Shown in pieces: positions 47,879 to 56,307 of a stretch of 64,000 bases of DNA (position 1 is the first letter of the stretch; each line of letters begins with the position of its first letter). The notes beneath the pieces are model-generated. The model did no database searches and was not told the origin of the DNA. It saw nothing but the letters and a program-made list of their open reading frames with translations. The stretch lies in the NCBI RefSeq assembly GCF_041248615.1, contig NZ_CP158426.1. One strand, 5' to 3'. This stretch comes from Escherichia coli (GTDB taxonomy: Bacteria > Pseudomonadota > Gammaproteobacteria > Enterobacterales > Enterobacteriaceae). Both the position numbers and the translations under genes were made by a program.

Positions 47879-50011
47879 TCAATCTTTAAGACTAATTGTG
47901 ATTGCATCTGGAAATCCAATTTGGCTATAGCACATAGTTTCGGTTATGAATAATTTTCTATCGATAAAATCAAGTACATCTTTTTTCGTGAGCCCCGTTA
48001 ACATCGTCAATTTGTTAATTACATAATCATACCAATCATGGTGAAGCATGTTTATATACATGTTAATATCAACTGCATCTTTCTTCCATGAATTATTCGG
48101 TATCAAATCTTCAGATAAAAATCCTCTTATTAAATCGCTTGCATAGGACATCCTAAGAAAAACAGAAAGAAAAAGCCTTACATTAACATGTGTAAAATTT
48201 GTAGATAGCGTCGAAGGAAACTCGTAAAACCGGTAGATCAACCGACTTACAAAAACAGCAGAGTCTATCGCATTTACAGGCAGTAATGTTCCGATGACAC
48301 TTAATGCACCACTTATAACGAAGCCATTAGCAACAGAGGCATGAGAACCACTTAGGGCAGATGTTAAACATGCACTCAGAATTACGATAGGAGGAATTCT
48401 TGCTATTTTTCTCAAACTCCAAGTGTCCACTTTATCCTCACCTATTATTAACCATCCATGACTCCCATTGCCATCATGGTTTCCATGACAATCCATAACA
48501 AGAATATGACCTTGATATTGATTTAGAGCATCAATAAACTCAGCTTTCGATCTAACATCAATAATCTCGCAATCAAGATCTGGCATCTGTTTTTTAAATA
48601 TCTCAATTGCGTTCTCTAATATGAACTTTAAGTGATCATCAGGCTCAAAAGAACGTATAACTAAAACCTTTCTCAACTCAGATGCTTTTACTAAAACGCG
48701 CGGAAAAGCAGAGGCGCTCTGTAGAAGAACGTTACCAGGCGTAGCATTTATTCTTGATATCTCATGACTGAACATTATAGGTATGTTATTAAACCTAATC
48801 CAATCCAATGGTACATCACAAACAAAGGACAAATCGCTATAGTTTTTACTTATATATGTTCTCAACTTGCAACCAAGGGCTCTTCGAATAACAGTATTGA
48901 ATGCTTTAGATTTAGTGATGAATGCTTCACTATTTATCCCAGAAGAAGTTGCAAGATCTTCAAGATTTTTCAAATAATTGGAGTAATGATTTATTGCATT
49001 TGGCAATCTTATTGCTGGGATTTTTTTATTTATGCTAAATAAAGTAATCGCAGCTGTTGTTAATCGCATTTCAGCGCGTCTTAGTGAGGTGAGGTAACGG
49101 AAAGCAGGACTTTTAAAAAGTTCTTTTCTATCTGAATTTATATCAAGTCTAATTCCAGAATAGCCTGGATTCCTCAACACTCCATCAATAAGGAATTTTT
49201 TCTCAATTGTGGATAAATTTTCCGTTATTAACTCATAAAAGTCATTATTTTTATCATATAAAAAAGAGTGCATACCCGGAGCAAAAAGTAAGACTTCCGT
49301 TGGAAGTGGTATATCTAATTCCTTTAAACATTCGGTGTATGCATCAACGCTATGAAGTATTATTTCTATAAACTCTCTTTTGCTACTACCATCTTTAATT
49401 CTTTTTGGTGGAGATAGCATATAGCCAAGTGATTCAATTAACAACTCATTGGGTAGTGTTGAATTGTTAAGCGTCGATCTCCAAGGTGATTTATTAAATA
49501 AAGCCCCTCTTCGCTTCAACTTCGTTGATATTTTCTTTTCACTGTGATTTTTTCTTATTTTATCCTCAATGAATTTCAACCGAGAGAAGAGCACCTTATC
49601 AAATGAGTATATACTATTAATCTTATTAAGTGGTAGATCAGCGCGTTTAGAATTGCAACAAATTATAGGTGGTATAGCAAAATGTTTTTTTAAAGCACAA
49701 ACATACGAAAAATCTTCTTTAGCACAAAAAATTAAGCAAAATGGCGTTTGATAAATATTTGGTATTTTTTCAAGATTTTCTTTAGATATTAAAAAAATAG
49801 GATTTAGCCCGCTTAGAGTAGGCTGAAAGTTATCATTTTCACTGACAAAAATCTCACTAATTTCTTTTGGTGTTTTGGCCAATAAAAAAAGAATGTTGGA
49901 TATCTCTGGGTTGAGGAGGCCAGTATCGAAACCTTGGATTATGGTTTGTTCCCCAGTAGTAGGCATGATTACAACTTTAAGTATCGCCCCGTGTTCCTGT
50001 AACAGTTCCAT
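47879..50011 (-). CDS. CHAT-domain (caspase-like cysteine protease) protein with an uncharacterised N-terminal region
   Basis: C-terminal GHILVMDCHGNHDG ... PPIVILSACLTSALSGSHASVANGFVISGALSVIG has the His-Gly / Ser-Ala-Cys catalytic signature of CHAT peptidases; AGGA SD before MELLQ; strongly AT-rich. Confidence 0.6.
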   Translation of the reverse strand: MELLQEHGAILKVVIMPTTGEQTIIQGFDTGLLNPEISNILFLLAKTPKEISEIFVSENDNFQPTLSGLNPIFLISKENLEKIPNIYQTPFCLIFCAKEDFSYVCALKKHFAIPPIICCNSKRADLPLNKINSIYSFDKVLFSRLKFIEDKIRKNHSEKKISTKLKRRGALFNKSPWRSTLNNSTLPNELLIESLGYMLSPPKRIKDGSSKREFIEIILHSVDAYTECLKELDIPLPTEVLLFAPGMHSFLYDKNNDFYELITENLSTIEKKFLIDGVLRNPGYSGIRLDINSDRKELFKSPAFRYLTSLRRAEMRLTTAAITLFSINKKIPAIRLPNAINHYSNYLKNLEDLATSSGINSEAFITKSKAFNTVIRRALGCKLRTYISKNYSDLSFVCDVPLDWIRFNNIPIMFSHEISRINATPGNVLLQSASAFPRVLVKASELRKVLVIRSFEPDDHLKFILENAIEIFKKQMPDLDCEIIDVRSKAEFIDALNQYQGHILVMDCHGNHDGNGSHGWLIIGEDKVDTWSLRKIARIPPIVILSACLTSALSGSHASVANGFVISGALSVIGTLLPVNAIDSAVFVSRLIYRFYEFPSTLSTNFTHVNVRLFLSVFLRMSYASDLIRGFLSEDLIPNNSWKKDAVDINMYINMLHHDWYDYVINKLTMLTGLTKKDVLDFIDRKLFITETMCYSQIGFPDAITISLKD

Positions 50012-50144
50012 CAAAAATCCTAATAAACAAATAAGAATGTTATAATCAAAAACTGCAAGGATTAGCAAGCAATTCTTACAGTTTTAAGAAGGGGATTATA
50101 CCGCAATATGCATAATTGCGTTCTGCCTATGCAAAATGTCAGTT

Positions 50145-51362
50145 CTAGTCTGAACAAGTACAAGTAACTATCGATTCAACTCTCTCCCACCATGCCTGGT
50201 AAGCTTTACGCTGTTCATCTAAATAATCGCTCTTGTCATAAACCTGCCATACCCCTGGCAGTTTATGACCGAGCATTATTTCTGCAATATGAGGTGCAGT
50301 AAGATCAGAAAAGTTTGTTCGTGCTGTTCGTCTCAAATCATGAAGAGACCAATGAGGGAATTGATACCCCAAACGCCGCCATGCGTACTGCATTAAATTG
50401 TAAGGCAGCGACTGCAATGATGTCCGGCCAACGGGTTCCCTGCTTCCTTCCTTAGTAAAAAGCATATCGGAACCATTGTTCATAGAGATAACGTACTTTA
50501 TAAGCTCTTCAACCGGTTCAATAATGGGGCGCTTTAGCGGTTCGCCTGTTATATCCCCTGTCTTATGTCGTTCTGGCGGTACAGTCCATACCTTATTAAT
50601 GAAATCAAAATCATTCACCCTAGCGGTAATTAGCTCTGAACTACGGCAGCCAAAATGCAGCAATAGTTTAATGAAGGCCCGGTATTTAGGAACCATTCGA
50701 GAACCATCGATCGCAGCATAAAGGATTTTAATTTCATCATGTGTCAGAAACCGTTTCTTCTGACCTTTACGGATATCCATATCTTTACCCGTGATATCCG
50801 ACAGCGGGCGAGTTTCAATGAGCTTTCTCTTATACGCCCAGACATGGGCCTGCTTTGCGTTAATTAGCAATCGGTCTGCTATTGCTGGAGTCTTAGTGCT
50901 AAGAGGCTCCAGGACTTCTAACCAATCATGCAATGTAGCTGCATCGTGAGGGATATTCCCGATTTTAGAGAACAGGTGCAGCTCAAACGAGCGGAGTATC
51001 TGTTCAGAACCTTTTTTATTTTTTACACAATATGCTTCATACCAGGCACGGATCACAGACTCTACCGTCATGGCTTCAGTAGCTTTTCGTTTTTCAGCCT
51101 GCTTGACTAATCGTGGATTGCGGTTTGACTCGAGTTCACCACGGAGACGGATAACTTCTTCTCTGGCCTCTTTTAATCCAGTTGCCGGGTAAGTTCCGAT
51201 ATCAAGGCGCTCACCTTTCCCTGCCCATTGATAACGATATTGGAACACTACGCGACCTTTCGGTGATACTCTGACAGACAGACCATCACGATCGGATTTA
51301 ACCAAAACCTTATCACGTTCCTTTCCAACGACTGAACGCAACCACGCATCAGACAGCGCCAT
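50145..51362 (-). CDS. tyrosine recombinase / phage integrase (P4-type)
   Basis: 405 aa; N-terminal DGLSVRVSPKGRVVFQYRY; C-terminal HDLRRTART ... LGH ... Y catalytic pattern. Confidence 0.85.
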   Translation of the reverse strand: MALSDAWLRSVVGKERDKVLVKSDRDGLSVRVSPKGRVVFQYRYQWAGKGERLDIGTYPATGLKEAREEVIRLRGELESNRNPRLVKQAEKRKATEAMTVESVIRAWYEAYCVKNKKGSEQILRSFELHLFSKIGNIPHDAATLHDWLEVLEPLSTKTPAIADRLLINAKQAHVWAYKRKLIETRPLSDITGKDMDIRKGQKKRFLTHDEIKILYAAIDGSRMVPKYRAFIKLLLHFGCRSSELITARVNDFDFINKVWTVPPERHKTGDITGEPLKRPIIEPVEELIKYVISMNNGSDMLFTKEGSREPVGRTSLQSLPYNLMQYAWRRLGYQFPHWSLHDLRRTARTNFSDLTAPHIAEIMLGHKLPGVWQVYDKSDYLDEQRKAYQAWWERVESIVTCTCSD

Positions 51363-51747: not shown

Positions 51748-52425
51748 TCAGTGTTTACACAGGAGCTGCTCCAGTTCGTGCAACGAAGAAACGGTCCAGG
51801 TAGGCGCGATGCCTTCTGGTTGCTCGCGATTGTGCGCATTCAGCCAGCAGGTCGCAAGCCCGGCGTTGATGCCACCGAGAATATCGGACTCGGCAGTGTC
51901 GCCAACCATCAGCACGCGTGAACGGTCAGGATTGCCCGCCTGTTCCAGCGCATAATCGAAAATTTTCTTATTCGGTTTGGCTACGCCAACTTCTTCGGAA
52001 ATCACCAACAAATCGAAATAATCACGCAGGCCCGTGCGTTCCAGACGCACTTGCTGCAAGGCGCTAAAGCCGTTGGTGATGATGCCGATTTTGGCGTTGC
52101 CACGAATGGCGTTAAGCAGAGAAACCGCGCCCGGCAGCGGCGTACAGATTTCCGCCATCGCATTAATAAAGGCTTCGTTGAGTTTACCCGGCTCGACGTT
52201 CAGTCGTTCGGCCCAGCTCTCAAACCGCCCGTGCTGAAGCTGTAATGAAGTGATCGCGCCGTTTTGATAATCCACCCACAGTGGCTTGTTAACGGCCTGA
52301 TAGTCCTGAAAATCTTCAGCGGTAAAGGTGACGCTGTAATCAAGAAACATCCGCTGCAGGCCGGTGAATGAGTCAAAGGTAAACAGCGTTTCATCGGCAT
52401 CAAAGAAAATCCAGTCCCACTTCAT
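51748..52425 (-). CDS. yjjG: pyrimidine 5-prime-nucleotidase YjjG (HAD family)
   Basis: 225 aa, matches E. coli YjjG. Confidence 0.9.
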
Positions 52426-53370: not shown

Positions 53371-54402
53371 ATGTCTGCATTTACCCCGGCAAGTGAAGTC
53401 TTGCTGCGTCACAGTGATGATTTCGAACAAAGCCGTATTCTTTTTGCCGGAGACTTACAGGATGACCTGCCCGCGCGTTTAGATACCGCGGCCAGCCGTG
53501 CTCATACCCAGCAATTCCACCATTGGCAGGTGTTAAGCCGCCAGATGGGGGATAACGCCCGTTTCAGTCTGGTCGCCACGGCGGATGATGTCGCAGATTG
53601 CAATACGCTGATTTACTACTGGCCGAAGAACAAACCGGAAGCCCAGTTCCAGTTGATGAATTTACTTTCTCTACTGCCGGTGGGCACGGATATTTTTGTC
53701 GTTGGCGAGAACCGCAGCGGCGTGCGCAGCGCCGAACAGATGCTGGCAGATTATGCGCCGTTGAATAAAGTCGACAGCGCCCGTCGCTGTGGCCTCTATT
53801 TTGGTCGTCTGGAAAAACAGCCGGAATTTGATGCCGATAAATTCTGGGGCGAATACAGCGTCGATGGCCTGACAGTCAAAACGCTGCCTGGCGTGTTTAG
53901 CCGCGACGGTCTGGATGTCGGTAGCCAGTTACTGCTCTCGACGTTAACTCCGCACACGAAAGGTAAAGTACTGGATGTCGGCTGTGGCGCGGGCGTGCTT
54001 TCTGTTGCCTTTGCGCGCCATTCACCGAAAATTCGTCTCACTCTGTGCGATGTCTCTGCGCCAGCGGTAGAAGCCAGCCGCGCAACACTTGCGGCCAACG
54101 GTGTTGAAGGTGAAGTCTTTGCCAGTAACGTCTTTTCCGAGGTGAAAGGTCGTTTTGATATGATCATCTCCAACCCGCCGTTCCACGATGGGATGCAAAC
54201 CAGCCTCGATGCGGCGCAAACGCTGATTCGCGGCGCGGTGCGTCATCTTAATAGCGGCGGCGAGCTGCGAATTGTAGCGAACGCCTTCCTGCCTTACCCG
54301 GACGTGCTGGATGAGACATTTGGCTTCCACGAAGTGATCGCGCAAACCGGGCGCTTCAAGGTGTATCGCGCCATTATGACCCGCCAGGCGAAGAAAGGTT
54401 AA
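53371..54402 (+). CDS. rsmC: 16S rRNA (guanine1207-N2)-methyltransferase
   Basis: 343 aa, matches E. coli RsmC. Confidence 0.9.
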
Positions 54403-54404
54403 GT

Positions 54405-54662
<258 letters not shown>

Positions 54663-54711
54663 TCCTGATGGCCATTTTTCCAGCAATTACACCTCCGGCG
54701 ATAATTAACTA

Positions 54712-54739
54712 TTGACGAAAAGCTGAAAACCACTAGAAT
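54712..54739 (+). promoter_or_regulatory. putative promoter of the tRNA-Leu operon
   Basis: TTGACG, 16-bp spacer, TAGAAT, then GC-rich discriminator GCGCCTCC, about 40 bp upstream of the first tRNA. Confidence 0.55.
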
Positions 54740-54780
54740 GCGCCTCCGTGGTAGCAATTCTTTTTAAGAATTGATGGTAT

Positions 54781-54867
54781 GCGAAGGTGGCGGAATTGGT
54801 AGACGCGCTAGCTTCAGGTGTTAGTGTCCTTACGGACGTGGGGGTTCAAGTCCCCCCCCTCGCACCA
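54781..54867 (+). tRNA. leuQ: tRNA-Leu (CAG)
   Basis: 87-nt sequence GCGAAGGTGGCGGAATTGGTAGACGCGCTAGCTTCAGGTG...CTCGCACCA with anticodon loop CTTCAGGT and long variable arm. Confidence 0.9.
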
Positions 54868-54895
54868 AAAACCACGTTGATATTGCTCGCACTGG

Positions 54896-54982
54896 GCGAA
54901 GGTGGCGGAATTGGTAGACGCGCTAGCTTCAGGTGTTAGTGTCCTTACGGACGTGGGGGTTCAAGTCCCCCCCCTCGCACCA
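54896..54982 (+). tRNA. leuP: tRNA-Leu (CAG)
   Basis: Identical second copy. Confidence 0.9.
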
Positions 54983-55016
54983 AACGAGGCGATATCAAAA
55001 AAAGTAAGATGACTGT

Positions 55017-55103
55017 GCGAAGGTGGCGGAATTGGTAGACGCGCTAGCTTCAGGTGTTAGTGTCCTTACGGACGTGGGGGTTCAAGTCCCCCCCCTCGCA
55101 CCA
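55017..55103 (+). tRNA. leuV: tRNA-Leu (CAG)
   Basis: Identical third copy. Confidence 0.9.
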
Positions 55104-55141
55104 ATTATCTTTACTTCCTTTCTTGTTTCTTCCCTGATTTT

Positions 55142-55378
55142 TCATCCCTGATTCAAATTCATTATCATCAGCATGATGCCAGCAATAAGCGCCAGGCACG
55201 ATGGCAGCAAAACGTAATGCCGCAACTGTTTGTGATACAGCATCACCGGCGTCAATATTAATCCCATCAGAATGACAATCCGCCACTGATCCGGCGATAA
55301 ATCCGCATACATCAGCCCTGCAATCAGCAATCCCGGCAGCAACACTCCCCAGCCACTGCCCAGCGTACGTTGCAACAT
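55142..55378 (-). CDS. yjjZ: small membrane protein YjjZ
   Basis: 78 aa from MLQRTLGSGWGVLLPGLLIAG; Fur-box-like sequence upstream. Confidence 0.7.
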   Translation of the reverse strand: MLQRTLGSGWGVLLPGLLIAGLMYADLSPDQWRIVILMGLILTPVMLYHKQLRHYVLLPSCLALIAGIMLMIMNLNQG

Positions 55379-55390
55379 GGTTTCATCTCT

Positions 55391-55500
55391 TTCATTGATA
55401 ATGATAACTAATATCATATGATAATTTTTATCATTTGCAAGCCAGAGAAATCCCTTGCTATCGGGTAAACCTATCGCTAGGATTAGCAATCATTATCATT
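55391..55500. promoter_or_regulatory. Fur-box-like sequences in the divergent yjjZ/fhuF control region
   Basis: TGATAATGATAACTAATATC (about 55396-55415) and GATTAGCAATCATTATCATT (55481-55500) resemble the Fur consensus GATAATGATAATCATTATC. Confidence 0.5.
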
Positions 55501-55518
55501 TAGATTACTATCCCGATT

Positions 55519-56307
55519 ATGGCCTATCGTTCCGCACCGCTCTATGAAGATGTTATCTGGCGAACGCATCTCCAGCCGCAGGATGCTGGGCTTGCACAAG
55601 CCATACGGGCGACGATCGCCGAACATCGTGAACATTTGCTCGAGTTTATCCGCCTGGATGAACCCGCTCCGCTTAACGCCATGACGCTGGCGCAATGGTC
55701 ATCAACGAATGCGCTAAGTTCTCTACTGGCGGTCTATTCCGATCATATCTATCGCAACCAACCAACGATGATCCGCGAGAACAAACCGCTGATCTCACTA
55801 TGGGCGCAATGGTATATCGGCCTGATGGTGCCACCATTAATGTTGGCGCTGCTGACGCAGGAAAAAGCATTAGATGTGTCGCCGGAACATTTCCACGTTG
55901 AGTTTCACGAAACCGGACGCGCCGCCTGTTTCTGGGTCGATGTGTGTGAAGATAAAAACGCAACACTACATTCGCCGCAGCAGCGAATGGAAACGTTAAT
56001 CAGTCAGGCGCTGGTTCCGGTAGTGCAGGCATTAGAAGCAACGGGAGAGATCAACGGCAAACTTATCTGGAGCAATACCGGTTATTTGATCAACTGGTAT
56101 CTGACTGAGATGAAACAGCTGCTTGGCGAGGCGACGGTTGAATCGCTGCGCCATGCCCTCTTTTTTGAGAAAATGCTCACGAACGGTGAAGATAATCCAC
56201 TCTGGCGTACCGTGGTACTGCGCGACGGCCTGCTGGTGCGCCGCACTTGCTGCCAGCGTTATCGCTTACCGGATGTGCAGCAATGTGGCGATTGTATGCT
56301 GAAATGA
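55519..56307 (+). CDS. fhuF: ferric-siderophore reductase FhuF (2Fe-2S)
   Basis: 262 aa with C-terminal CCQRYRLPDVQQCGDC cluster motif. Confidence 0.9.
   Translation: MAYRSAPLYEDVIWRTHLQPQDAGLAQAIRATIAEHREHLLEFIRLDEPAPLNAMTLAQWSSTNALSSLLAVYSDHIYRNQPTMIRENKPLISLWAQWYIGLMVPPLMLALLTQEKALDVSPEHFHVEFHETGRAACFWVDVCEDKNATLHSPQQRMETLISQALVPVVQALEATGEINGKLIWSNTGYLINWYLTEMKQLLGEATVESLRHALFFEKMLTNGEDNPLWRTVVLRDGLLVRRTCCQRYRLPDVQQCGDCMLK

What the first reader, a model, noticed from the sequence alone, without database searches (positions are those of the whole stretch)
55391..55500. Fur-box-like sequences between yjjZ and fhuF
Two matches to the Fur consensus are consistent with iron regulation of both genes. 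This is expected chromosomal biology.
Basis: partly seen in the sequence, partly recalled or inferred. Interest (0 to 1): 0.1.

Follow-up and report, generated by a model that had tools for sequence, protein, structure and literature searches.

The report
Known Fur operators between yjjZ and fhuF
The short gap between the E. coli genes yjjZ and fhuF holds two binding regions for the iron-sensing repressor Fur that were already mapped experimentally, so this is ordinary, well-documented iron regulation.

Summary
Confirmed, and already known. The window is E. coli NRZ14408. yjjZ (55142-55378, minus) and fhuF (55519-56307, plus) diverge from a 140-bp spacer.

The best Fur-consensus matches in the whole 64 kb lie here: 55397-55415 (16 of 19 positions) and 55419-55433 (14 of 15). 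A weaker match sits at 55484-55498.

Transferred to window coordinates, the published DNase I footprints (Chen et al. 2007) are a high-affinity region at 55390-55442 and a low-affinity region at 55472-55525.

- **Cluster 1** covers the yjjZ promoter (TTGCAA-16-TATGAT, published start site at 55405).
- **Cluster 2** covers the fhuF -10 and start site (55488/9).

Published work places both genes in the core Fur regulon.

One addition from this work: in 42 of 52 related Enterobacteriaceae loci a 354-aa GGDEF diguanylate cyclase gene separates yjjZ from fhuF. There cluster 1 stays with yjjZ and cluster 2 with fhuF, each nearly invariant. So the E. coli "double" operator is two separate ancestral operators brought together by loss of that gene, with the junction near 55443-48. 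Each cluster therefore probably serves mainly its own gene.

Interest is low.

The parts
55142..55378 (-). yjjZ coding sequence (78 aa, DUF1435 small membrane protein)
   Evidence: Annotation of the identical record and of H1. Pfam DUF1435, E=1e-36.
55390..55442 (.). Fur cluster 1, the high-affinity operator (published footprint fhuF1). It holds overlapping Fur boxes at 55396-55410, 55397-55415, 55402-55416, 55419-55433 and 55420-55438.
   Evidence: Motif scans. Footprint NC_000913 4603763-4603815, transferred using (no indels versus K-12). The strongest published site, 4603779, maps to window 55426, the centre of the 55419-33 hit. Core 55397-55441 is identical to the window base in 86% of non-Escherichia sequences on average.
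55435..55440 (-). yjjZ promoter -35 hexamer TTGCAA
   Evidence: Promoter scan. The same promoter is named by Shimada 2014 and by the ROSE paper. Conserved as TTGCAA/CTGACA across genera.
55413..55418 (-). yjjZ promoter -10 hexamer TATGAT, inside the palindrome ATCATATGAT
   Evidence: Invariant across genera.
55405..55405 (-). yjjZ transcription start (published for MG1655 at 4,605,777)
   Evidence: transferred (yjjZ ATG 4605804 = window 55378).
55443..55448 (.). Junction between the two ancestral blocks, left by loss of the diguanylate cyclase gene. Unconstrained spacer.
   Evidence: yjjZ-anchored homology ends at about 55442 and fhuF-anchored homology starts at about 55449. This stretch varies even within Escherichia.
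55455..55460 (+). fhuF promoter -35 hexamer TTGCTA
   Evidence: Lies 17 nt upstream of the -10 that fits the published start site. TTGC is conserved in more than 90% of genera. The assignment of the hexamer is my inference.
55478..55483 (+). fhuF promoter -10 hexamer TAGGAT (TATGAT in K-12)
   Evidence: Position relative to the published start site. TAGGAT is invariant in other genera. K-12 difference at 55480.
55488..55489 (+). fhuF transcription starts (published, NC_000913 4603717/4603716)
   Evidence: transferred.
55472..55525 (.). Fur cluster 2, the low-affinity operator (published footprint fhuF2). Best motif match is TAGCAATCATTATCA at 55484-55498. The conserved block is 55478-55507.
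   Evidence: Footprint 4603680-4603733. Motif match with 3 mismatches. AATCATTATCATTTAGATT is nearly invariant in 47 non-Escherichia sequences, mean 0.89.
55519..56307 (+). fhuF coding sequence (262 aa ferric-siderophore reductase)
   Evidence: Annotation. Pfam FhuF and FhuF_C.

Best explanation
The 140-bp yjjZ-fhuF spacer carries two separate operators for the iron-loaded Fur repressor.

Cluster 1 (55390-55442, several overlapping Fur boxes, high affinity) lies on the -35, the -10 and the start site of the yjjZ promoter. When iron is sufficient, Fur bound there excludes RNA polymerase and keeps yjjZ essentially silent.

Cluster 2 (55472-55525, one degenerate box, low affinity) lies on the -10 and start site of the fhuF promoter and represses fhuF less tightly.

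When iron falls, Fur leaves and both genes are transcribed divergently.

Shown by published experiment: Fur binding at both regions, the two start sites, and Fur/iron dependence of both genes. Shown here: the motif statistics, the overlap of the operators with promoter elements, and deep conservation of both blocks. Also shown here: the blocks are physically separate, about 1.3 kb apart and flanking a diguanylate cyclase gene, in most Enterobacteriaceae.

Inferred: each cluster mainly serves its adjacent gene, and the Escherichia arrangement arose by deletion of the cyclase gene.
For: - **Motifs.** The top-ranked Fur matches of the whole 64 kb fall here, and they are rare even in composition-matched shuffles.
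- **Binding.** Published DNase I footprints fhuF1 and fhuF2 plus a gel shift map to 55390-55442 and 55472-55525. The window has no indel versus K-12 in this spacer.
- **yjjZ promoter.** TTGCAA-16-TATGAT lies inside cluster 1. Its start site is absent in wild type, present in a fur knockout and strong in vitro.
- **fhuF.** The start site at 55488/9 lies inside cluster 2. fhuF is derepressed in a fur deletion.
- **Regulon.** Both genes are in the core Fur regulon of nine strains by ChIP-exo plus expression. Salmonella yjjZ is repressed by iron.
- **Conservation.** Mean identity to the window base is 0.86 for the cluster 1 core and 0.89 for box 2, against 0.19-0.35 for the unrelated flanks, in 42-47 non-Escherichia sequences. 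Both are near-invariant within Escherichia while the junction varies.
- **Synteny.** In 42 of 52 loci a GGDEF gene separates the two blocks. Cluster 1 stays 17-24 nt from the yjjZ ATG and box 2 stays 32-41 nt from the fhuF ATG.
Against: - Nothing contradicts Fur control.
- No published or computed test separates the contribution of each cluster to each gene in E. coli.
- Cluster 1 lies only 46-98 bp upstream of the fhuF start site, so it could still influence fhuF.
- A plus-strand promoter-like site (TTGATA-16-TATGAT, 10/12; TTGATA-19-GATAAT) lies inside cluster 1 and points at fhuF.
- Cluster 2 is not convincing by motif score alone (794/5000 shuffles reach it with the 19-mer).
- OxyR is also reported to repress fhuF, so the proximal region is probably not a pure Fur operator.
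Confidence: 0.93

Rival explanations
1. The two clusters act together on fhuF. Cluster 1 would be an upstream auxiliary operator, either through Fur polymerising or looping toward cluster 2, or by controlling a second upstream fhuF promoter inside cluster 1. The pair would then be one functional unit for fhuF, as implied by the published name 'fhuF promoter' for both footprints.
For: - Both footprints were described as parts of the fhuF promoter.
- A plus-strand sigma-70-like site (TTGATA-16-TATGAT, 10/12) lies inside cluster 1, and RNA polymerase holoenzyme binds the spacer in vitro with a predicted fhuF-directed promoter there.
- Fur is known to extend along DNA at higher concentration.
Against: - In 42 of 52 related loci the clusters are about 1.3 kb apart, yet both are conserved, so each works without the other.
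- Where they are adjacent, the spacing is not held. The first box lies 82 bp from box 2 in Escherichia and 95-105 bp in Leclercia/Silvania.
- The TT of the plus-strand -35 is poorly conserved, 0.3-0.4.
- The only mapped fhuF start sites are at 55488/9.
Confidence: 0.25
2. The proximal region (55460-55500) is mainly an OxyR operator, and its Fur-box resemblance is secondary.
For: - OxyR is reported to repress fhuF.
- The best OxyR-consensus match in the spacer, 55460-55496, scores 13/20 and is among the top 8 positions of the window.
Against: - Fur protects 55472-55525 in vitro.
- The most conserved stretch is AATCATTATCATTTAGATT, which is the Fur half-site rather than the ATAG/CTAT elements.
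- The OxyR match is weak.
- I could not read the paper that mapped the OxyR site.
Confidence: 0.1
3. The matches are chance products of an AT-rich promoter spacer and have no regulatory role.
For: The spacer is 32% GC and cluster 1 is 21% GC. Cluster 2 alone is reached by 16% of 19-mer shuffles.
Against: - Cluster 1 is reached in under 0.3% of composition-matched shuffles.
- Both blocks are near-invariant across many genera while their flanks are scrambled.
- Direct footprints and regulon data exist.
Confidence: 0.01

Closest known systems
The published Fur sites fhuF1 and fhuF2 of E. coli K-12 (Chen et al. 2007, NAR 35:6762)
   Same: This is the same locus. The spacer differs from K-12 at 4 of 140 positions with no indels. 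After coordinate transfer the footprints are 55390-55442 and 55472-55525. The strongest published site is centred exactly on the best motif hit found here.
   Different: Only strain-level differences. 55409 is T versus C inside cluster 1, giving 16/19 rather than 17/19 to the consensus. 55480 is G versus T in the fhuF -10. The paper treats both clusters as 'the fhuF promoter'. The synteny data here assign cluster 1 to yjjZ.
Divergent Fur-controlled promoter regions of the enterobactin cluster (fepA-fes, fepB-entC, fepD-entS)
   Same: A short bidirectional spacer in which Fur operators overlap the core promoters of two divergently transcribed, iron-repressed genes (cited).
   Different: From my own knowledge, those regions use overlapping or compact operator arrangements that evolved in place. 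Here there are two separable blocks of unequal affinity. They are about 1.3 kb apart in most relatives and became neighbours only after a gene loss.
Extended Fur operator of the aerobactin (iucA) promoter and the hexamer-array / 7-1-7 models of the Fur box
   Same: Cluster 1 is an array of overlapping boxes (three strong sites; four overlapping 7-1-7 or 19-mer hits), as in extended operators.
   Different: Cluster 1 is about 50 bp, against about 100 bp for iucA (Table 3). It serves a small gene of unknown function rather than a siderophore operon.

Membership tests
E. coli Fur operator (Fur box) | Match to the 19-bp consensus GATAATGATAATCATTATC or 7-1-7 TGATAATNATTATCA: distal cluster | tested here: met
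   16/19 at 55397-55415, the only hit with 3 or fewer mismatches in 64 kb (0.01 expected). 14/15 specified positions at 55419-33, the best in the window. Reached in 12-14 of 5000 composition-matched shuffles.
E. coli Fur operator (Fur box) | Match to the consensus: proximal cluster | tested here: inconclusive
   The best match is 3 mismatches in the 7-1-7 form (55484-98) and 7 mismatches in the 19-mer. Shuffles reach these in 84/5000 and 794/5000. In most other genera the same box has 1-2 mismatches.
E. coli Fur operator (Fur box) | Operator overlaps core promoter elements or the transcription start of the repressed gene | tested here: met
   Cluster 1 covers the yjjZ -35, -10 and start site at 55405. 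Cluster 2 covers the fhuF -10 and start sites at 55488/9. The start sites are taken from papers, not measured here.
E. coli Fur operator (Fur box) | [quoted passage not shown] | not testable with these tools
   Published: DNase I footprints of both regions and a gel shift of the strong cluster. ChIP-exo in nine strains.
E. coli Fur operator (Fur box) | Fur- and iron-dependent expression of the adjacent genes | not testable with these tools
   Published: yjjZ start site seen only in a fur knockout or in vitro. fhuF derepressed in a fur deletion. Both genes in the core regulon. Salmonella yjjZ repressed by iron.
E. coli Fur operator (Fur box) | Conservation of the site upstream of orthologous genes (phylogenetic footprint) | tested here: met
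   Cluster 1 core 0.86 and box 2 0.89 mean identity to the window base in 42-47 non-Escherichia sequences, against 0.19-0.35 for non-homologous flanks. Invariant within Escherichia.
Single shared operator for a bidirectional promoter pair | One contiguous operator that overlaps both divergent promoters | tested here: not met
   There are two blocks separated by an unconserved spacer (55443-48 plus the weakly conserved 55449-54). They are about 1.3 kb apart, with a GGDEF gene between them, in 42 of 52 loci.
OxyR binding site | Match to ATAGnTnnnAnCTAT-N7-ATAGnTnnnAnCTAT | tested here: inconclusive
   Best match in the spacer is 55460-55496, 13 of 20 specified positions, tied in the top 8 of the window. 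The mapping paper is not held. OxyR repression of fhuF is cited.

The most novel reading that the evidence does not exclude
Loss of the intervening diguanylate cyclase gene in the Escherichia ancestor, and independently in Leclercia/Silvania, fused two formerly separate Fur operators into one 140-bp spacer. This placed the high-affinity yjjZ operator 46-98 bp upstream of the fhuF start site. It may now add to fhuF repression, or provide a second Fur-controlled fhuF promoter. That would be regulatory rewiring by gene deletion. The deletion history itself is well supported here (about 0.85). The probability given below is for a measurable functional consequence for fhuF.
Probability: 0.25. Interest if true: 0.3.

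Novelty: already known. Interest (0 to 1): 0.1.

Why it matters
As a finding it matters little. The Fur sites of this spacer were footprinted in 2007, and both genes are textbook members of the Fur regulon. The fhuF promoter is even the reporter of the classical Fur titration assay.

The comparative result adds a small piece of understanding. It explains why the 'fhuF promoter' has two footprints of different affinity. It predicts that the strong one is really the yjjZ operator. It also shows that a GGDEF signalling gene was cleanly excised, apparently in two lineages, without damaging either operator.

That is useful for anyone who uses fhuF or yjjZ reporters as iron sensors, or who transfers Fur-regulon annotations between enterobacterial genera.

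Tried and rejected
1. I first placed the other weak Fur-like hits of the window (27733-57, 29898-916, 4820-83) in robA, the slt/trpR spacer and IS421, by assuming collinearity with strain 300709. This was wrong. Those loci share nothing with the window. The window is from strain NRZ14408 and carries a prophage there.

2. I looked for the site list of Chen et al. 2007 to build an independent weight matrix. No supplement is held, so I used the consensus and 7-1-7 forms only.

3. Zheng et al. 2001, which mapped the OxyR site and fhuF start sites, is not held. The OxyR site is therefore only a weak motif match.

4. Literature searches linking the Salmonella cyclase I recall as STM4551 to Fur or iron found nothing relevant. 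I did not verify that the intervening gene is STM4551.

5. An Rfam scan of 54600-55700 found only the three tRNA-Leu genes and a sub-threshold REP-type hit. Nothing lies in the spacer.

6. I considered the plus-strand promoter-like site in cluster 1 as the ancestral promoter of the cyclase gene. Its -35 TT is poorly conserved (0.3-0.4), so this is not supported.

7. I considered chance AT-rich matches and rejected this.

Full report
**Identity of the region**

The window is 100% identical to E. coli NRZ14408 chromosome NZ_LT599825.1, positions 4579546-4643545. That record annotates yjjZ at window 55142-55378 (minus strand) and fhuF at 55519-56307 (plus strand). Three tRNA-Leu genes and rsmC lie upstream, and bglJ-yjjQ lie downstream (same order).

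Pfam confirms DUF1435 for YjjZ and FhuF plus FhuF_C for FhuF. The 501 bases around the finding occur in 5424 of 5426 complete E. coli genomes. The divergent spacer is 55379-55518, 140 bp and 32% GC.

Yes.
- The 19-bp Fur consensus at 3 or fewer mismatches hits the 64-kb window once, at 55397-55415 (GATAATGATAACTAATATC). The expectation is 0.01.
- A scan of every position shows that the best 19-mer and 7-1-7 matches of the whole window all lie in this spacer. They are 55397-55415 (3 mismatches), 55420-55438 (4), 55419-55433 (TGATAATTTTTATCA, 1 mismatch) and 55402-55416 (2).
- A separate weaker match, TAGCAATCATTATCA, lies at 55484-55498 (3 mismatches).
- I also shuffled the AT-rich region itself, which is the harsher control. 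The distal cluster is reached in 12-14 of 5000 shuffles. The proximal one is reached in 84 (7-1-7) or 794 (19-mer) of 5000.

The distal cluster is therefore significant on sequence alone, and the proximal match is not.

**What is already known**

Chen et al. 2007 (PMC2189734) footprinted exactly this spacer with purified Fur. They found a high-affinity region fhuF1 (NC_000913 4603763-4603815) and a low-affinity region fhuF2 (4603680-4603733). They placed the fhuF start sites at 4603717/6, the fhuF ATG at 4603686 and the yjjZ ATG at 4603827.

I fetched the K-12 spacer and aligned it to the window. There are no indels and four substitutions, at 55380, 55409, 55447 and 55480, so coordinates transfer exactly:
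- fhuF1 = 55390-55442
- fhuF2 = 55472-55525
- fhuF start sites = 55488/55489

Their strongest predicted site (4603779) maps to 55426, the centre of my best hit.

Other published evidence:
- yjjZ and fhuF are in the core Fur regulon, by ChIP-exo plus expression, in nine E. coli strains.
- The yjjZ start site (MG1655 4,605,777 = window 55405, minus strand) is undetectable in wild type, appears in a fur knockout and is strong in vitro.
- fhuF is derepressed in a fur deletion.
- Salmonella yjjZ is an iron-repressed member of the Fur regulon.

**Anatomy and mechanism**

The yjjZ promoter is TTGCAA (55440-55435), a 16-nt spacer, then TATGAT (55418-55413). The consensus scan finds it, and two papers name the same promoter. 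It lies wholly inside cluster 1, as does its start site.

The fhuF start sites at 55488/9 fit a -10 of TAGGAT (55478-83) and a -35 of TTGCTA (55455-60) with a 17-nt spacer. This hexamer assignment is my inference. The -10 and the start sites lie inside cluster 2.

The mechanism is classical promoter occlusion by iron-loaded Fur at each promoter. The affinities differ: yjjZ is tightly shut, and fhuF is more easily released. The easier release of fhuF fits its use as the reporter of the Fur titration assay, but that link is my inference.

**Comparative evidence generated here**

A scan of one genome per species with FhuF gave 52 loci across Enterobacteriaceae.
- In Escherichia (5 loci), yjjZ is adjacent to fhuF and divergent from it, 140 bp away. 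In Leclercia/Silvania (5 loci) the same arrangement holds at 155-166 bp.
- In the other 42 loci, a 354-aa membrane protein gene with a GGDEF domain lies between them on the fhuF strand. The Pfam hit is E=4e-47 and the protein carries the RFGGEEF motif. The yjjZ-fhuF distance there, measured in the 37 of these loci where the yjjZ start lies within the fetched DNA, is about 1400-1444 bp.
- These 42 loci include Citrobacter, Salmonella, Klebsiella, Raoultella, Enterobacter, Lelliottia, Kosakonia, Trabulsiella, Siccibacter, Kluyvera and others.

In those genomes the block GATAATGATAACCAATATCATATGATA...CATTTGTCAGC stays 17-24 nt from the yjjZ ATG. The block TTGC...TAGGATTGGCAATCATTATCATTTAGATT stays 32-41 nt from the fhuF ATG.

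Measured as the fraction of non-Escherichia sequences identical to the window base:

| Region | Mean identity |
|---|---|
| Cluster 1 core, 55397-55441 | 0.86 |
| Sequence after cluster 1 | 0.35 |
| fhuF-anchored alignment, 55399-55448 | 0.19 |
| fhuF promoter, 55455-83 | 0.70 |
| Box 2, 55484-55507 | 0.89 |

Within Escherichia, including E. albertii, E. whittamii and the most divergent E. coli hit, both clusters are invariant apart from one or two positions each (window 55408/55409, 55433 and 55437 in cluster 1; the fhuF -10 and two bases 5' of it, 55476-55481, in cluster 2), and the few bases between them vary.

The two clusters are thus two phylogenetic footprints of independent ancestry. 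The Escherichia spacer is their fusion after clean loss of the cyclase gene, with the junction at about 55443-55448. No remnant of that gene is found in the window.

Citrobacter and Salmonella have FhuF closer to the E. coli protein than Leclercia does, yet they keep the cyclase gene. The Leclercia/Silvania junction also differs. Two independent losses are therefore the parsimonious reading, and this is inference.

The spacing between the first box and box 2 differs between the two deletion lineages, 82 bp versus 95-105 bp. This argues against a required geometry between the clusters.

**Rivals**

- *Joint action of both clusters on fhuF, or a second fhuF promoter inside cluster 1.* This is not excluded. 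A plus-strand promoter-like site scores 10/12 there. However, its -35 is poorly conserved, and only the proximal start sites have been mapped.
- *OxyR.* OxyR is also reported to repress fhuF. The best OxyR-like match (55460-55496, 13/20) overlaps the fhuF promoter but is weak, and I could not read the mapping paper.
- *Chance.* This is excluded by conservation and by the footprints.
- *A known RNA family.* No Rfam family matches in the spacer.

**Comparison with what is known, and verdict**

This is the published fhuF1/fhuF2 locus itself, so the novelty class is 'already known'. It resembles the divergent Fur-controlled enterobactin promoters. It fails the test of a single shared operator: it is two operators placed side by side by a gene loss.

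The only new element is the evolutionary explanation of the two-cluster architecture, with the resulting prediction that the strong cluster belongs to yjjZ. I found no paper stating this in the held library, which is not proof that it is unpublished.

Noticed in passing
L006-L053 (e.g. L009:316-1377; L040:348-1391); absent from window 55379-55518: In 42 of 52 related Enterobacteriaceae loci, a 354-aa membrane GGDEF diguanylate cyclase gene lies between yjjZ and fhuF. It is missing only in Escherichia and in Leclercia/Silvania, with different junctions, which suggests two independent clean deletions. From memory this is probably STM4551 in Salmonella; I did not verify that. Whether it is Fur-regulated is unknown.
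   Followed up: partly
window 55480: The fhuF -10 hexamer is TAGGAT in this strain, in other E. coli and in other genera (TAGTAT in E. albertii and E. whittamii). In K-12 MG1655 it is TATGAT, closer to the consensus. K-12 may therefore have a slightly stronger fhuF promoter than is typical.
   Followed up: partly
window 27733-27757: A second Fur-box-like site (CGAGAATAATTATCA, 2 mismatches to 7-1-7) lies 238-262 bp upstream of a prophage terminase small-subunit gene, right beside the cos site. It aligns with the K-12 Qin prophage nohA upstream sequence TGATAATCATTATCA, which is the published gel-shifted nohA Fur site. The copy in this window is more degenerate.
   Followed up: partly
window ~1-51400: A lambdoid prophage lies next to yjjG (51748-52425). 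Its integrase is at 50145-51362, and it carries tail, capsid, portal, terminase and lysis genes. It also carries two IS1414 copies (7459-8667, 46485-47693), an IS1B (43045-43742), a low-GC CHAT-domain protein gene (47879-50068) and a small 'TonB family protein' gene (28467-28793). Only 1 of 5426 complete E. coli genomes has this whole arrangement.
   Followed up: partly
window 55460-55496: The best match in the spacer to the OxyR binding consensus (13 of 20 specified positions, top 8 of the window) overlaps the fhuF -35/-10 and Fur box 2. This is consistent with reported OxyR repression of fhuF but is weak on its own.
   Followed up: partly
window 54781-55103: Three tandem tRNA-Leu genes lie just downstream of the yjjZ stop codon (the third ends at 55103). 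All three give the same Rfam score.
   Followed up: no
window 54400-54680: Repeated REP-type palindromic units lie between rsmC and the first tRNA-Leu. They show up as a spurious 217-aa ORF with repeated TCRFGRSDKAFTPHPTR peptides and a sub-threshold Rfam naRNA4 hit at 54609-54641. This stretch is 180 bp longer than in strain 300709.
   Followed up: no
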